Positions 30 to 4,619 are shown, counted from the first letter of the stretch. The stretch: 4,619 bases of DNA from a virus (IMGVR_UViG_3300039330_000026:1-4619), one strand, 5' to 3'. The notes: generated from the sequence alone by a model not told the origin. Program-made: numbers and translations.

Positions 30-629
30 TCAGAATTTATAACCGACACCCACGATGAAACCGTCAGTGCGCCAGTCGCCACTGCCGGAGCCTTCATAAG
101 CAATATCAATGGCCACGGATTCGGTCGGGTTAAACTGCACGCCAGCTCCCCACGCCAGAGACGTGTTGCTGTGGCGATCGTCATCACTTCCGGTCAGCAC
201 ATCGTGCGTTTTCCCCTTGTTGTCAGTTACGCGGAGATAATCCCCGGAGAACGTCGAAACACGGCTGTAAGCCACACCTGCCATCGCATAAGCACTGAAC
301 CATTCATTCACGCGTACAGATGGCCCCGCCATCATGCTGAACCAGCGGTTACGCACTGAATCTTCATGCCAGCGGGTATCGCTGTAATGCGTTTTTTGCT
401 CATCTTTGGCATTGGCATAACTGAATGACGTCACCAGCCCCAGCGTGTCCGTAAATTCATAACGGTATTTCACGTTAATGCCCTTCAGGTCATCGCTGCC
501 TGGCATATCAGTATGGGTCTGAAGATACCCGGCGCTTAGTGTGGACTGATGCTCTGCTGCGCTCGCTGGCGTACCAGCGGCAACCAGCCAGACTACTGCG
601 GACAGAATAACAGCACATAATTTACGCAT
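30..629 (-). CDS. lom: Lom-like outer-membrane beta-barrel protein (Ail/Lom/PagC/Rck family), phage lysogenic-conversion moron
   Basis: Complete 199-aa ORF (ATG at 627-629, TGA at 30-32). The N-terminus MRKLCAVILSAVVWLVAAGTPASA-AEHQ looks like a Sec signal peptide: basic start, hydrophobic core, A-x-A cleavage motif. The C-terminus ...IAYEGSGSGDWRTDGFIVGVGYKF ends in an aromatic residue, as in outer-membrane beta-barrel signals, and matches the C-terminus of lambda Lom as I recall it. Internal blocks (KGINVKYRYE, SAYAMAGVA) are also lambda-Lom-like. It sits directly downstream of J, as in lambda. A GAGAGG Shine-Dalgarno lies 5 nt upstream of the ATG. Confidence 0.9.
   Translation of the reverse strand: MRKLCAVILSAVVWLVAAGTPASAAEHQSTLSAGYLQTHTDMPGSDDLKGINVKYRYEFTDTLGLVTSFSYANAKDEQKTHYSDTRWHEDSVRNRWFSMMAGPSVRVNEWFSAYAMAGVAYSRVSTFSGDYLRVTDNKGKTHDVLTGSDDDRHSNTSLAWGAGVQFNPTESVAIDIAYEGSGSGDWRTDGFIVGVGYKF
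558..629 (-). other. Predicted Sec signal peptide of Lom (residues 1-24, cleavage after A-S-A)
   Basis: Read from the translation: MRK, then hydrophobic CAVILSAVVWLVAAG, then TPASA followed by AEHQ. The cleavage position is inferred from the AxA rule, not computed. Confidence 0.6.
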
Positions 630-653: not shown

Positions 654-678
654 AAAAAAGGCGCCATTTCTGGCGCCC
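654..678 (-). terminator. Rho-independent terminator candidate between J and lom
   Basis: The minus strand reads GGCGCCA-GAAA-TGGCGCC followed by TTTTTTATT: a 7-bp GC-rich stem, a GNRA-type tetraloop and a U-tract. It lies 19 nt after the J stop codon. Confidence 0.7.
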
Positions 679-696
679 GTATTGGGGTTATAAAAT

Positions 697-3600
697 TCAG
701 CTAATCGTGATGCCTGCAGTGGCTTTCTTCATCACAACAACCAGCAAATCGCTGATACTTGCTGTGGGATACCAGCCATTTACCCACCATGCTGATACAG
801 AAAACTCCAGCGTCATGTCGCCGCGACCAGCAGGCATATCAATAACACCACTGTAAACCAGCGTATTATCCATCGCGGTACGGTTATAAATTTCAGCACC
901 GTTTTTCTTCACTATCAGGCGGCATGACGAATAAGTATCGCTGTTCTCCCGCTCATGTCTGGCACCGCTGAAAGCCACCGCCGGAATAACAATCTGCCGG
1001 TTAAACGGCTGATCGTCATAAACCCTGACGGTAATGGTTCCTGATGGCCAACGCTTCGGTGCACGGGAGTCACGAGGGAAAGCCTTACCCACTGTTTTAA
1101 CGAGATCGCCTTCAATCTGGTTTGCAGACAGTTTCCCTTTAATCTGACAGTTCTCATTTATCGTAACGTTGTTGAGCGTCCCGGCGTTCGCATTCACACT
1201 GCCACTGATATCCGCATTTTTCGCCGTCAGTCGCCCGTCCGGTGTCAGGGAAAATGCCGGAGGATTACCGCCGCTGGTAATGGTGGGAGCCGTCAGATAT
1301 TTCAGGAACACGTCATTCATGAATATCTGATCGCCCTGACCAACAAACATCGGCTTTGTGTTGCCATTCGCAGGATTAATCATCGCAATCCTGTCTGCCG
1401 CCAGCAGCACCTGACTCTGCATGCCGTCGGGGGTGTTCTCAATACCGGCACCGATACCCGCAATATAAAGGCGTCCGTCCTGCATCTGCTGCAGCTTCAC
1501 TGCCCACATGCTGTTCAGGTTATTATTTGTATCAACCTGAACCTTCTGTATCTGCTGGATCGCTGCACTCTGGTCTTCCAGTTTCTTATTGACGGTCTGT
1601 GTTATTTCATTGCTGACATCCGTTATGGACGTCCTGATTTCAGTCAGGTCAGGCGCAAGCTGACCGTTATCAATCTGCGTCCACAGCTCCTGAGCCAGAT
1701 GGGTTTTCCCTATCTCGCCTTTGAAAAAATCCAGATAGCCGGATGCATCATCACTCGGCTGACCAACAGCCTCCACGAATGCCGATTTGCCAACGGTGTT
1801 CACACTGCGAACGTAAAAATAATAATCATGGCCCGGTTTGATATTGATACTGGCGGCTATCCAGTACAGCGCCGTACCAAGATAACGCGCGCTGGTTTCA
1901 ACCTGCCTGATATCAGCAATCCGTTTTTCCGAGAACCAGAACTCAAACTGTACCGTCGGATCATAAACCGCAAGATGCGGCGTGGCGGTTATCTGAAAAT
2001 AGCCCGGCGTCAGCTCAATCCGCGACGGCGCTGCCGGTGCGGCAATCCGGAACGATACCGACGCCGGATCGCCCTGCTGCCCCCACGCATTTACTGCCCG
2101 GACTGTCAGCCTGTAGTTCCCCAGAGCCAGTTGTGTGAAGCGGTAAGTGGTTTCCGCCGTCCGGGCCGTGCTGACCAGCCGCTCACTGCCGTCATCCGCT
2201 GTTACGGTCAGACGGAGCAGGAAGCTCACGCCCTTCACCACCTTCGGCGTGTCCCAGCGCGCCAGCACCTGATATTCCCCGCTGTCTGCGGTGACTTCGG
2301 CGGTCAGGTGCTGCACCGCTGGCGGCGTGACACCATTCACCGTGCCGCTCTGGTCGCCGTCAAAGTGCGCTCCGTTATCCACGATGGCCTCTTTTTCCGG
2401 TACATGCTGCACGGCGGTGATGGCATACGCACCATCATCGTTCTCCCGGATACTCACACAGCGGAACAGGCGCTGGCGCAGCGTCGGCAGCTTCAGCCCC
2501 CACACGCTGTATTCGGCAACGCCGTCAGGAATACGGCTCACTTTCACCTTCACGCCGTCGGTGACGGACTGGACCTCCACGCTGACCGGATTCCCACTTC
2601 CGTCAACCAGGCTTATCAGCGTGGTGCCGGAGGATGACAGCATGATTTCACGGTCGAGCGTCAGCGTCCGGGTCTGGCTGTTCACCGCCAGCACGCGACC
2701 ACCGGTGCTGATACCGGCATAGTCATCATCACAGATTTCAATGACATCGCCCGGCACATGGCGAAGCCCTTCTGCGCCGACGCTGAAATCCACGGTCTGC
2801 GTTTCCAGCAGTTCTGTTTTAATCAGCCACAGCCCGGCGCGGTGTGCCTGCCCCCGACTGGTACAGCCAAAGGCATCCATCTTCGTGACGTTACGACCGT
2901 AACGGGCAATGGCCTGCGTGTCCTCCACAAGCTCTGTCGCCGTCTCCCAGCCGTTATCCGGGTCAATCCAGTTCACCTCAACGGCATTATGGCGGTCCTT
3001 CAGGGCGCTGAAGCTGTAGCGGAACGGCGCGCCATCATCCGGCATCACCACATTACTGCGGTTATAGGTCCACACCTTATCCGACGGTCGGTCCTGCACG
3101 AACGTCAGCGTCTGCCCGTTCCATACCGGCATACAGCGCATCGCCGAGCAGAAATCACTGAGCACATCCCACGCCTTGCGCTGTGTGGTCAGGTACGCAT
3201 TACAGGTAATGCGCGGCTCCGTGCCGCCAAAGCCGTCCGGCACCGACTGGTCGCAGTACTGGCCGATGACATACAGCGCCCATTTATCCACATCCGCCGC
3301 ACCAAGACGTTTCCCCATGCCGTAGCGCGGATGGGTCAGCATATCCCACAGACACCAGGCCATGTTGTTGCTGTATGCTGGTTTTAACGTTCCGTCCCAG
3401 ATACCGCTGTATTGTCGCGTCTGCGGGTTATAGTTCGACGGCACCTGCAGAATGCGCCCGCGAAGATGATAATTACGACTCACCTGCTGGCTGCCGAACT
3501 GCTCCGAGTCCACCTGTACGCCGACCAGTGCCGTGTTCGGGTAGCACTGTTTCACATCGATGATTTCGGTGTATGACGACCAGAGCGTTTTGTTCTGCAG

Positions 3601-4176
3601 CTGGTCTGTAGTGCTGTCCGGCGTCATCCTGCGCATCCGGATACTGAACGGGCGCGGCGGCAGGTTACCCACCACCACCGAGGCCAGATACTGTGAGGTG
3701 GTTTTGCCTTTAATGGTGATGTCTTTTTCCGTCACCCAGCCACCGTTACGTTGTATCTGAACCAGCAGGCGGACTTCCGACGGATTCCGGTCACCCTTTG
3801 AGGTGGTTTCCACCAGTGCCTGCACACCAAAGGTAAAGCGCAGACGGTCGATATTTGCAGACGTGATGGTGCGGGTTATCGGCGTGTCGTATTTCACTTC
3901 CGTACCCAGCACCGTCTCGGAACCGGAGGATTCAAATCCCTCCGGCGGTGACTGCTCCTGCTCGCCTGCCCGGAACACCACCGTGACGCCGGAGATATTG
4001 GTATTCCCCTCACTGTCCAGCACCGGCGTACTGTTCAGCAGCACGCTTTTTAATCCATCCACCGGACCTTCAATCGGCCCTTCGCTGATGGCATCAATCA
4101 CACTCAGCAGTTGCGTGGACTTCAGGTTGTCCTTCGCTTCGCGCGGGGTATGCCCCTTACTGCTTCCTTTGCCCAT
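697..4176 (-). CDS. J: Central tail fibre / host-specificity protein J (lambda gpJ family tail-tip protein)
   Basis: Complete 1159-aa ORF (ATG at 4174-4176, TGA at 697-699). The N-terminus [54 protein letters not shown] and most of the first ~820 residues match lambda gpJ as I recall it. The length is typical of the family (lambda gpJ is about 1130 aa). The gene sits between I and lom as in lambda. A GGAG Shine-Dalgarno lies 8 nt upstream of the ATG. Confidence 0.95.
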
Positions 4177-4236: not shown

Positions 4237-4619
4237 TCAGCGGCCAATCACCACAACCTGACCACCGTCCCCTTCATCTGCCGTGCTGATCTCCTGAGAA
4301 ACCACACGAGACCCCACGCGCATTTCACCGTACAGAACAGGCAGAACATTGCCCTGGGCAACCATGTTATCCAGTGATGAGAAATAGGTGTTCTGCTTAC
4401 CGTTATCCGTGCTGGTCGCTGTGGGCGTCCGGGCTTTCGGTGCCAGCATCTGGGCCACACCACCCAGGATCATACTGGCCCCTGCCGCATACATGCCCGA
4501 TACAGCCGCGGCACCCAGCCAGCCCACAGGGTTCCACCATGCCACCGCAATCAGCGCCGCCCCCAGCACCACCTGAAACACACCGCCACTTTTAGCTCCC
4601 GCCAGACGCGGCACGATGT
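4237..4619 (-). CDS. I: Tail-tip assembly protein I (lambda gpI-like), C-terminal part; 5' end lies beyond the window
   Basis: The minus-strand frame is open from the window edge to TGA at 4237-4239. The ORF track's 'M' at 4612-4614 is actually a GTG codon, so the real start is almost certainly upstream, outside the window. The Gly/Ala-rich hydrophobic C-terminus (GGVFQVVLGAALIAVAWWNPVGWLGAAAVSGMYAAGASMILGGVAQ) and the position immediately upstream of J fit lambda gpI; identity to gpI itself is from position and composition, not confirmed residue by residue. Confidence 0.75.
   Translation of the reverse strand, partial: IVPRLAGAKSGGVFQVVLGAALIAVAWWNPVGWLGAAAVSGMYAAGASMILGGVAQMLAPKARTPTATSTDNGKQNTYFSSLDNMVAQGNVLPVLYGEMRVGSRVVSQEISTADEGDGGQVVVIGR

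What the first reader, a model, noticed from the sequence alone, without database searches (positions are those of the whole stretch)
697..1719. C-terminal ~340 residues of J diverge from lambda gpJ: a presumed receptor-binding variant
Up to about residue 820 (...GYLDFFKG, nt 1717-1740) the protein follows lambda gpJ nearly residue for residue, as far as I recall that sequence. After that the two stay alignable in blocks ([38 protein letters not shown]) but differ at many positions, and the extreme C-terminus is different: here it is ...[38 protein letters not shown]. In lambda the C-terminal portion of gpJ binds the LamB receptor and sets host range. A diverged C-terminus on a conserved N-terminal scaffold is the usual sign of modular exchange among lambdoid phages and suggests a different receptor or a different LamB allele specificity. 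This is a known kind of variation, not a new system.
Basis: partly seen in the sequence, partly recalled or inferred. Interest (0 to 1): 0.5.

Follow-up and report, generated by a model that had tools for sequence, protein, structure and literature searches.

The report
Mosaic lambda-like tail-tip protein J
The tail-tip protein J of this lambda-like prophage has a lambda-type body joined to a swapped shaft and a swapped receptor-binding tip of a very common, already characterised type that most likely binds the porin OmpC instead of LamB, so it is ordinary phage mosaicism.

Summary
J (697-4176, minus strand, 1159 aa) is 97% identical to lambda gpJ up to residue 820 and 49% identical after it. 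The best breakpoint falls exactly at GYLDFFKG.

The divergent 340 residues are two modules that are exchanged independently, not one receptor-binding block.
- Residues 821-975 are a helical shaft plus the upper beta-prism. This part is the phage 21 / VT1-Sakai allele (97% identical) and is 27 residues longer than lambda's.
- Residues 1027-1159 are the receptor-binding domain (Pfam Ig_GpJ_C). It is 100% identical to phage PhiR40_1, 89% to VT1-Sakai, 60-63% to phage 21 and A8, and 41% to lambda and 434.
- A stretch conserved in all these phages (about residues 940-1010) joins the two modules.

The engineered lambda chimera gpJ "1A2" (Brödel et al. 2024) carries the VT1-Sakai-type tip. It delivers DNA through EDL933-type OmpC but not K-12 OmpC, in cells lacking LamB. 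OmpC is therefore the most likely receptor here. This is not proven: 14 substitutions, mostly in loops, separate the two tips, and phage 21 (LamB) and A8 (OmpC) differ in receptor at 81% identity.

This tip class occurs in about 62% of complete E. coli genomes. The feature is known and of low novelty.

The parts
697..4176 (-). Gene J: tip attachment protein / central tail fibre, 1159 aa plus stop codon; intact ORF
   Evidence: ORF. Pfam Phage-tail_3, FNIII-A_GpJ, Ig_J, Ig_J_second, Phage_Tail_Tip and Ig_GpJ_C all match above their cut-offs; 95% nucleotide identity to J of phage PhiR55_1.
1717..4176 (-). J residues 1-820: hub domains and two FNIII/Ig domains, lambda-type scaffold
   Evidence: 97% amino-acid identity to lambda, phage 21, 434, 2G7b and PhiR55_1. 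dS to lambda 0.16, dN/dS 0.08. Pfam Ig_J_second ends at residue 818.
1513..1716 (-). J residues 821-888: alpha-helical shaft, phage 21 / VT1-Sakai allele, 27 residues longer than lambda's
   Evidence: Residues 821-885 are 97% identical to phage 21, 98% to PhiR55_1 and 95% to VT1-Sakai, but 30% to lambda, 434 and 2G7b. The AF2 monomer model is helical over residues 811-888, with pLDDT 70-87 for the long helix. The domain name comes from the lambda structure paper.
1252..1512 (-). J residues 889-975: upper part of the beta-prism (central straight fibre), same donor allele as the shaft
   Evidence: 97-98% identical to phage 21, PhiR55_1 and VT1-Sakai; 69% to lambda. Pfam Phage_Tail_Tip covers residues 872-1000.
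1147..1359 (-). J residues ~940-1010: stretch conserved in all alleles ([53 protein letters not shown]); the likely recombination joint between the shaft and tip modules
   Evidence: Conserved across lambda, 21, 434, 2G7b, PhiR40_1, VT1-Sakai and A8. Nearest-relative identity switches from phage 21 / PhiR55_1 to PhiR40_1 across nt ~1120-1220. The engineered 1A2 junction (NADISG|NVNAN) and A8 junction (SGTL|NNVTI) both lie here.
700..1098 (-). J residues 1027-1159: receptor-binding domain (Ig-like / jelly-roll), VT1-Sakai / 1A2 class, PhiR40_1 subtype
   Evidence: Pfam Ig_GpJ_C covers residues 1029-1159. 100% identical to PhiR40_1, 91% to 2G7b, 89% to VT1-Sakai and PhiR55_1, 63% to phage 21, 60% to A8, 41% to lambda and 434. 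In the AF2 model, blocks of 10 residues across this domain have pLDDT mostly 80-96, falling to about 71 near residues 1130-1139 and 47 for the last 10 residues. The best PDB matches are 9wca/9wcb (A8 gpJ, the latter with OmpC) and 8xck/8xcj (lambda gpJ, the latter with LamB). The 1A2 tip equals the VT1-Sakai tip.
659..678 (-). Terminator-like hairpin (GGGCGCC-AGAAAT-GGCGCC followed by a T-run) between the J stop codon and lom
   Evidence: Phage 21 has an annotated terminator at the equivalent place after J.
30..629 (-). lom (Ail/Lom outer-membrane beta-barrel, 199 aa); context gene downstream of J and a separate mosaic module
   Evidence: Pfam Ail_Lom, E = 1.7e-127. 47.5% amino-acid identity to lambda Lom and 96% to PhiR55_1 Lom.
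4237..4619 (-). 3' part of gene I (tail tip assembly protein I), cut by the window edge; context gene upstream of J
   Evidence: 97.6% amino-acid identity to PhiR55_1 gpI and 80% to lambda gpI.

Best explanation
The region is the 3' third of gene J of a lambda-like (pro)phage. J forms the trimeric tail tip and central fibre. Here it is a recombinant of at least three old alleles.

1. A lambda-type hub plus two FNIII domains (residues 1-820).
2. A phage 21 / VT1-Sakai-type helical shaft and upper beta-prism (residues 821-975). This is 27 residues longer than lambda's and is structural, not receptor-specific.
3. After a universally conserved joint (about residues 940-1010), a receptor-binding domain (residues 1027-1159) of the VT1-Sakai / '1A2' class, identical to that of the plaque-forming phage PhiR40_1.

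By analogy with lambda gpJ-LamB and A8 gpJ-OmpC, three receptor-binding domains would insert their distal loops into a trimeric outer-membrane porin. Binding would spread the domains, twist the prism, flip the helical shaft and open the tail tip for DNA ejection.

The porin is most likely OmpC, and probably natural non-K-12 OmpC alleles, not LamB.

Shown here: the mosaic structure, the domain identities, and the identity of the tip class with 1A2.
Inferred: the receptor (OmpC about 0.65, LamB about 0.15, another porin or unknown about 0.2) and the triggering mechanism.
For: Mosaic structure:
- The breakpoint against lambda is at residue 820, which coincides with the end of Pfam Ig_J_second at residue 818.
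- Segment-wise nearest relatives differ. The shaft is 97% identical to phage 21 but its tip only 63%. The tip is 100% identical to PhiR40_1 but its shaft only 45%. 2G7b combines a lambda shaft with this tip class.
- dS to lambda is 0.16 in residues 1-820, against 1.7 in the shaft module and about 2.0 in the tip. dS to PhiR40_1 in the tip is 0.011.
- GC content falls from 0.585 to 0.47-0.49.

Fold:
- The AF2 model of residues 960-1159 matches A8 gpJ (9wca, and 9wcb in complex with OmpC) and lambda gpJ (8xck, and 8xcj in complex with LamB) best.
- A PDB sequence search ranks A8 gpJ (E = 1.7e-120) above lambda gpJ.

Receptor:
- The printed DNA of chimera GpJ 1A2 encodes, from NADISG onward, the VT1-Sakai tip. 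160 of 173 residues are covered by exact 5-mers or longer; I attribute the uncovered stretches to frameshifts introduced by machine reading of the PDF, but did not verify this separately.
- 1A2 transduces lamB-/ompC- K-12 cells only when EDL933-type OmpC is supplied, and not with MG1655 OmpC.
- The 1A2 producer strain needed only lamB-, whereas the A8 producer strain also needed an ompC deletion.
- All six PhiR phages with this tip class list ECOR13 or E. coli C as host, and none lists MG1655.

Mechanism: the lambda gpJ structural work.
Against: - The window tip differs from the 1A2 tip at 14 of 133 residues, and 10 of these lie in predicted loops (binomial p = 0.023). These are the likely contact regions.
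- Receptor choice in this family is labile. Phage 21 (native receptor LamB) and A8 (OmpC) are 81% identical in the tip. A single substitution outside the loops, I1025T, lets phage 21 use OmpC; the window has L at that position. So 89% identity does not prove the same receptor.
- No receptor experiment was found for PhiR40_1 or any phage with this exact tip.
- The host-listing argument rests on six phages.
- The 1A2 sequence was read from machine-read PDF text that contains frameshifting errors.
- The monomer AF2 models cannot show the trimer or the receptor interface.
Confidence: 0.7

Rival explanations
1. The tip still uses LamB, as lambda and phage 21 do, and the sequence difference reflects an alternative way of binding LamB or specificity for other LamB alleles.
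For: Phage 21 has the same shaft allele and a tip 63% identical to this one, and it natively uses LamB. Receptor choice among LamB, OmpC and OmpF changes with very few J mutations.
Against: The closest characterised tip (1A2, 89% identical) worked in a lamB- background and depended on the OmpC allele supplied. Identity to the lambda tip is only 41%.
Confidence: 0.15
2. The tip binds another outer-membrane protein (OmpF, or another trimeric porin or beta-barrel), or a set of OmpC alleles that does not overlap with that of 1A2.
For: 10 of the 14 differences from 1A2 lie in predicted loops. Within-class variation is concentrated in the same loops. Evolved lambda and phage 21 reach OmpF.
Against: No member of this tip class is reported to use anything other than OmpC. 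The 89% identity and the absence of indels relative to 1A2 argue for the same receptor protein.
Confidence: 0.12
3. The C-terminal divergence arose in place, by accelerated point-mutational evolution under diversifying selection, rather than by recombination.
For: Receptor-binding proteins are known targets of diversifying selection. dN/dS is higher in the tip (0.13-0.30) than in the N-terminal part (0.05-0.09).
Against: The boundary is sharp at residue 820. Synonymous sites are saturated (dS 1.7-2.0) only beyond it. Near-identical copies of each segment exist in phages whose other segments differ. There are indels of 27 and about 73-100 residues between shaft alleles, and GC content shifts.
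Confidence: 0.02
4. J is a decaying gene of a defective prophage, so the odd C-terminus has no function.
For: Many E. coli J genes are remnants. The VT1-Sakai J is frameshifted, and many database hits are fragments.
Against: The ORF is intact at 1159 aa with all six J domains complete. The tip is identical to that of a plaque-forming phage. dN/dS is well below 1 in every segment.
Confidence: 0.03

Closest known systems
Chimeric lambda gpJ '1A2' (Brödel et al. 2024, Nature, PMC11338833), whose donor tip equals the J C-terminus of phage VT1-Sakai (Sp15) of E. coli O157:H7
   Same: Same receptor-binding-domain class: 89% identity over residues 1027-1159 with no indels, and the same C-terminal ...[18 protein letters not shown]. 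1A2 shows that about 167 C-terminal residues of this class, grafted onto lambda gpJ at NADISG, are enough to retarget lambda to OmpC.
   Different: 14 substitutions in the tip, 10 of them in predicted loops (for example GRGDM against GHGHM, WWVNGW against [15 protein letters not shown] against KHEKEHTDI). 1A2 keeps lambda's short shaft, whereas the window J has the phage 21-type long shaft. The OmpC-allele range of the window tip is untested.
J of Escherichia phage PhiR40_1 (PV340560), with PhiR55_1 (PV340571) as the closest full-length relative
   Same: The PhiR40_1 tip is 100% identical in protein and 99-100% in DNA over nt 620-1119. PhiR55_1 J has the same length (1159 aa) and architecture and is 95% identical in DNA across the whole window.
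   Different: PhiR40_1 has a third shaft allele about 73 residues longer (J is 1232 aa) and is only 45-60% identical over residues 821-975. The PhiR55_1 tip is the VT1-Sakai subtype (89%).
Phage 21 J (OL657228); native receptor LamB, evolvable to OmpC and OmpF
   Same: The N-terminal 820 residues and the shaft/prism module (residues 821-975) are 96-97% identical, and the length is almost the same (1160 aa).
   Different: The tip is only 63% identical and has two indels. Its receptor is LamB.
Lambda gpJ (NP_040600; PDB 8xck, 8xcj, 8iyk); receptor LamB
   Same: Same protein family, same domain order and same I-J-lom context. 97% identity over residues 1-820. Same fold of the receptor-binding domain.
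   Different: The shaft is 27 residues shorter and 30% identical. The tip is 41% identical. The receptor is LamB.
A8 gpJ chimera (PDB 9wca, and 9wcb in complex with EDL933 OmpC) and phage 434 J (OmpC)
   Same: These are alternative gpJ tips that bind OmpC on the same scaffold. A8 is the best PDB match by sequence and by fold.
   Different: The A8 tip is 60% identical and belongs to the phage 21 class (81% identical to phage 21). The 434 tip is 41% identical.

Membership tests
Lambda gpJ tip attachment protein / central tail fibre | Full domain series: hub (Phage-tail_3, FNIII-A), two FNIII/Ig domains, tail-tip fibre prism, C-terminal Ig-like receptor-binding domain | tested here: met
   Six Pfam J domains, each above its curated cut-off and in the lambda order. 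97% identity to lambda gpJ over residues 1-820.
Lambda gpJ tip attachment protein / central tail fibre | Genomic context: gene I upstream, lom downstream, within a lambda-type tail gene block | tested here: met
   The window carries I'-J-lom. The same order, with K, L, M and H upstream, is seen in the nearest phage PhiR55_1.
Lambda gpJ tip attachment protein / central tail fibre | Forms a trimer that seals the tail tip and opens on receptor binding | not testable with these tools
   Only monomer AF2 models were possible. Inferred from lambda structures.
VT1-Sakai / 1A2-class OmpC-binding gpJ tip | High sequence identity, without indels, to the 1A2 / VT1-Sakai receptor-binding domain | tested here: met
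   89% identity over 133 residues with no gaps. 1A2 equals VT1-Sakai at all legible positions.
VT1-Sakai / 1A2-class OmpC-binding gpJ tip | Same residues in the exposed loops that would contact the receptor | tested here: inconclusive
   10 of the 14 substitutions fall in predicted loops. The true contact residues of 1A2 are unknown, because no structure exists for this class.
VT1-Sakai / 1A2-class OmpC-binding gpJ tip | Infection or delivery that depends on OmpC and is independent of LamB | not testable with these tools
   Shown for 1A2 only. No data were found for this tip or for PhiR40_1.
Lambda-type LamB-binding tip | Close sequence similarity to the lambda receptor-binding domain, including its loops L1-L4 | tested here: not met
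   41% identity over the domain. The lambda positions I recall as host-range sites (for example S1012 and D1107; from memory, not checked here) align to different residues.
Phage 21 / A8-type tip | Shared indel pattern (PRN-G----SYASG and the NFNSNNQQSYW insertion) and at least ~80% identity | tested here: not met
   60-63% identity, and both indels differ.

The most novel reading that the evidence does not exclude
Two readings are not excluded.

1. The loop substitutions that separate the window / PhiR40_1 subtype from the 1A2 subtype may retarget the tip to a different set of OmpC alleles, or to another porin.
2. The shaft-length polymorphism may be a second host-range determinant, independent of the tip. 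There are three alleles, +0, +27 and about +100 residues relative to lambda, and they assort freely with the tip classes. Shaft length could set how far the tip reaches through O-antigen or capsule, or how the opening signal is transmitted.
Probability: 0.15. Interest if true: 0.4.

Novelty: already known. Interest (0 to 1): 0.15.

Why it matters
The practical value is modest. This J gives a natural example of three independently exchangeable modules (scaffold, shaft, tip) joined at conserved sequences. It also identifies a subtype of an OmpC-binding tip class that has already been used for engineered DNA delivery to gut E. coli. Because the class sits in roughly 62% of complete E. coli genomes, knowing its receptor helps predict prophage host range and superinfection. 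Its loop variants could widen the panel of OmpC alleles that lambda-based vectors can reach. It opens no new question about phage biology.

Tried and rejected
- My first alignment with lambda gpJ was wrong, because my script read the wrong record from a multi-record file. I fixed this.
- An exact-sequence look-up of the 1159-aa J found nothing on record, so the source genome remains unknown. The best complete E. coli genome is only 96.6% identical over the window.
- Literature searches for a receptor of the PhiR phages, 2G7b or VT1-Sakai found none.
- The paper that describes the PhiR collection (Brenes & Laub 2025) is not held.
- The OmpC-using siphophage phi330 was not compared with this J here. 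Residue numbers cited in that paper suggest a shorter fibre protein. It was not pursued.
- tblastn of J proteins against the printed 1A2 DNA gave broken, low-identity alignments because of frameshifts in the machine-read text. I replaced it with exact 5-mer coverage across three reading frames.
- The AF2 monomer models were confident only for the helix (shaft model) and for the receptor-binding domain (tip model). The beta-prism parts of both models are unreliable and were not interpreted.
- Pairwise dN/dS gave no gene-wide sign of positive selection in the tip (0.13-0.30). Site-wise tests were not run.
- Rfam found nothing in the window.
- The overlapping and antisense ORFs inside the region (707-856, 915-1157, 1169-1330 and 1699-2637) have no supporting evidence and were set aside.

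Full report
**What is in the window.** All three genes lie on the minus strand: the 3' part of tail gene I (4237-4619), an intact J (697-4176, 1159 aa) and lom (30-629). The whole window is 95% identical in DNA to the I-J-lom block of the temperate phage PhiR55_1. It matches hundreds of lambda-like phages and prophages and 4982 of 5426 complete E. coli genomes. The best genome match is 96.6%, and the exact J protein is not on record.

**Checking the observation.**
- Aligned with lambda gpJ, residues 1-822 are 97.3% identical and residues 823-1159 are 49.3% identical.
- A maximum chi-square scan places the breakpoint at residue 820 (chi2 = 401, against a permutation maximum of 18; Fisher p = 8e-84).
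- The breakpoint coincides with a domain boundary: Pfam Ig_J_second ends at residue 818.

**Anatomy of the divergent part.** I use the domain names of the lambda gpJ structures: hub domains, FNIII-1 and FNIII-2, alpha-helical shaft, beta-prism or "central straight fibre", and receptor-binding domain. A multiple alignment with J of lambda, 21, 434, 2G7b, PhiR55_1, PhiR40_1, VT1-Sakai and the PDB chain of A8 gpJ splits the 340 residues into separate modules.

| Residues | Module | Closest relatives | Lambda / 434 / 2G7b |
|---|---|---|---|
| 821-975 | helical shaft + upper prism | phage 21 97%, PhiR55_1 98%, VT1-Sakai 95-98% | 30% (shaft), 69% (prism) |
| ~940-1010 | conserved joint | conserved in every allele | conserved |
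| 1027-1159 | receptor-binding domain (Pfam Ig_GpJ_C, 1029-1159) | PhiR40_1 100%, 2G7b 91%, VT1-Sakai and PhiR55_1 89% | lambda and 434 41% |

- Lambda, 434 and 2G7b have a shaft 27 residues shorter. PhiR40_1 has a third shaft allele, about 73 residues longer.
- An AF2 monomer model is helical over residues 811-888.
- The tip is 63% identical to phage 21 and 60% to A8.
- The DNA shows the same switches. The nearest relative is phage 21 / PhiR55_1 over nt 1220-1719 and PhiR40_1 (99-100%) over nt 620-1119. A short patch in between (nt 1120-1219) is about 80% identical to all of them, and its protein sequence ([10 protein letters not shown]) matches A8-donor-type sequences.

**Recombination, not divergence in place.**
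- Shaft and tip alleles occur in many combinations:
  - lambda shaft with lambda, 434 or this tip;
  - phage 21 shaft with the phage 21 tip, the A8 tip or this tip;
  - long shaft with this tip.
- Synonymous divergence from lambda is 0.16 over residues 1-820, but 1.7 in the shaft module and about 2.0 in the tip. dS to PhiR40_1 in the tip is 0.011.
- GC content drops from 0.585 to 0.47-0.49.
- These are old alleles reassorted at conserved joints.
- dN/dS stays below 0.3 everywhere, so all parts are under purifying selection and the gene looks functional.

**Fold.** The AF2 model of residues 960-1159 has blocks of 10 residues across the receptor-binding domain with pLDDT mostly 80-96, falling to about 71 near residues 1130-1139 and 47 for the last 10 residues. 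Its best matches in the PDB are the A8 gpJ fibre (9wca closed; 9wcb open, with EDL933 OmpC) and the lambda gpJ fibre (8xck; 8xcj with LamB). A sequence search of the PDB ranks A8 gpJ first.

**Which receptor.**
- The characterised tips are lambda (LamB), 434 (OmpC), phage 21 (native LamB, with OmpC gained through the single change I1025T) and A8 (OmpC).
- Phage 21 and A8 are 81% identical in the tip yet use different porins. Similarity of 60-63% therefore says nothing about the receptor.
- The useful comparison is the second engineered chimera of Brödel et al., "1A2". Its DNA is printed in the Supplementary Information.
  - From NADISG onward it encodes the VT1-Sakai C-terminus. 160 of 173 residues are covered by exact peptides of five or more residues. 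I attribute the uncovered stretches to frameshifts from machine reading of the PDF, but did not verify this separately.
  - 1A2 therefore carries the same tip class as the window.
- 1A2 delivers DNA into lamB-/ompC- K-12 cells only when EDL933-type OmpC is supplied, and not with MG1655 OmpC. It also works on many other natural OmpC variants. Its producer strain needed only lamB-, whereas the A8 producer also needed an ompC deletion.
- Consistent with this, all six PhiR phages with this tip class list ECOR13 or E. coli C as host, and none lists MG1655.
- I therefore put OmpC at about 0.65.
- Caveats:
  - The window tip differs from 1A2 at 14 of 133 residues, 10 of them in predicted loops (p = 0.023). 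Variation within the class is concentrated in the same loops.
  - The window has L at the position of phage 21 I1025.

**How it probably works (inferred from lambda and A8 structures).**
1. The trimeric tip inserts its distal loops into a porin trimer.
2. The three domains spread apart.
3. The prism compacts and twists.
4. The helical shaft flips.
5. The FNIII strings dissociate and the hub opens, releasing gpI, gpH and the DNA.

The longer shaft would add about 4 nm if it is fully helical. This is my estimate from 0.15 nm per residue; what it changes functionally is unknown.

**Distribution and novelty.**
- The tip DNA (483 nt) is found at 80% identity or more in 3390 of 5426 complete E. coli genomes. 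It occurs in many Stx-phage and other prophage records.
- In a collection with one genome per species, this tip class (86-94% identity) appears only in Escherichia and Shigella.
- Modular exchange of J tips is textbook lambdoid mosaicism, and this tip class has already been grafted onto lambda. The finding is real, correctly interpreted and ordinary.

Noticed in passing
window 659-678 (minus strand): A terminator-like hairpin (GGGCGCC AGAAAT GGCGCC followed by TTTTTT) sits between the J stop codon (697-699) and the lom start (629). Phage 21 has an annotated terminator at the equivalent place.
   Followed up: partly
window 30-629 (minus strand): lom is a separate mosaic module. It encodes 199 aa and is only 47.5% identical to lambda Lom (206 aa), but 96% identical to PhiR55_1 Lom in protein and 99-100% identical to 2G7b in DNA.
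   Followed up: partly
window 4420-4619 (minus strand): The hydrophobic segment of gpI is a different, shorter allele than lambda's. In lambda this segment is proposed to form membrane-inserting helices H1 and H2. DNA identity to lambda is 60-73% here against 90-95% further downstream, and the segment is PhiR55_1-type.
   Followed up: no
window 1120-1219 (minus strand; J residues ~986-1019): A short patch is only about 80% identical in DNA to every phage compared. Its protein sequence ([24 protein letters not shown]) matches fragments of the A8-donor type (P0010, P0079, P0080), which suggests a third, very small recombination tract at the joint.
   Followed up: partly
L006 2042-5514 (VT1-Sakai): The J gene of VT1-Sakai is annotated as two truncated pieces because of a frameshift. 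Even so, its tip sequence is the one used in the functional 1A2 chimera.
   Followed up: no
proteins P0012, P0013, P0024, P0029, P0064, P0097, P0117: Some database proteins join unrelated N-terminal domains (for example a GntR-type HTH, terminase or Nu1, ClpP, transposase-like) to a J C-terminus. P0012 and P0013 visibly switch from unrelated sequence to J sequence at [10 protein letters not shown]. These are probably assembly or gene-calling chimeras, or J remnants at prophage ends.
   Followed up: no
L014 1286-1768; L020-L022: A contig labelled 'MAG: Clostridiales bacterium' carries a J tip 64% identical to this one, which is most likely a mis-binned Enterobacteriaceae contig. Gilliamella genomes carry partial, distant matches of 41-56%.
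   Followed up: no
window 1699-2637 (plus strand): A 312-aa ORF runs antisense to J in the GC-rich part of the gene. It has no start context or homology evidence and is most likely a by-product of composition.
   Followed up: no
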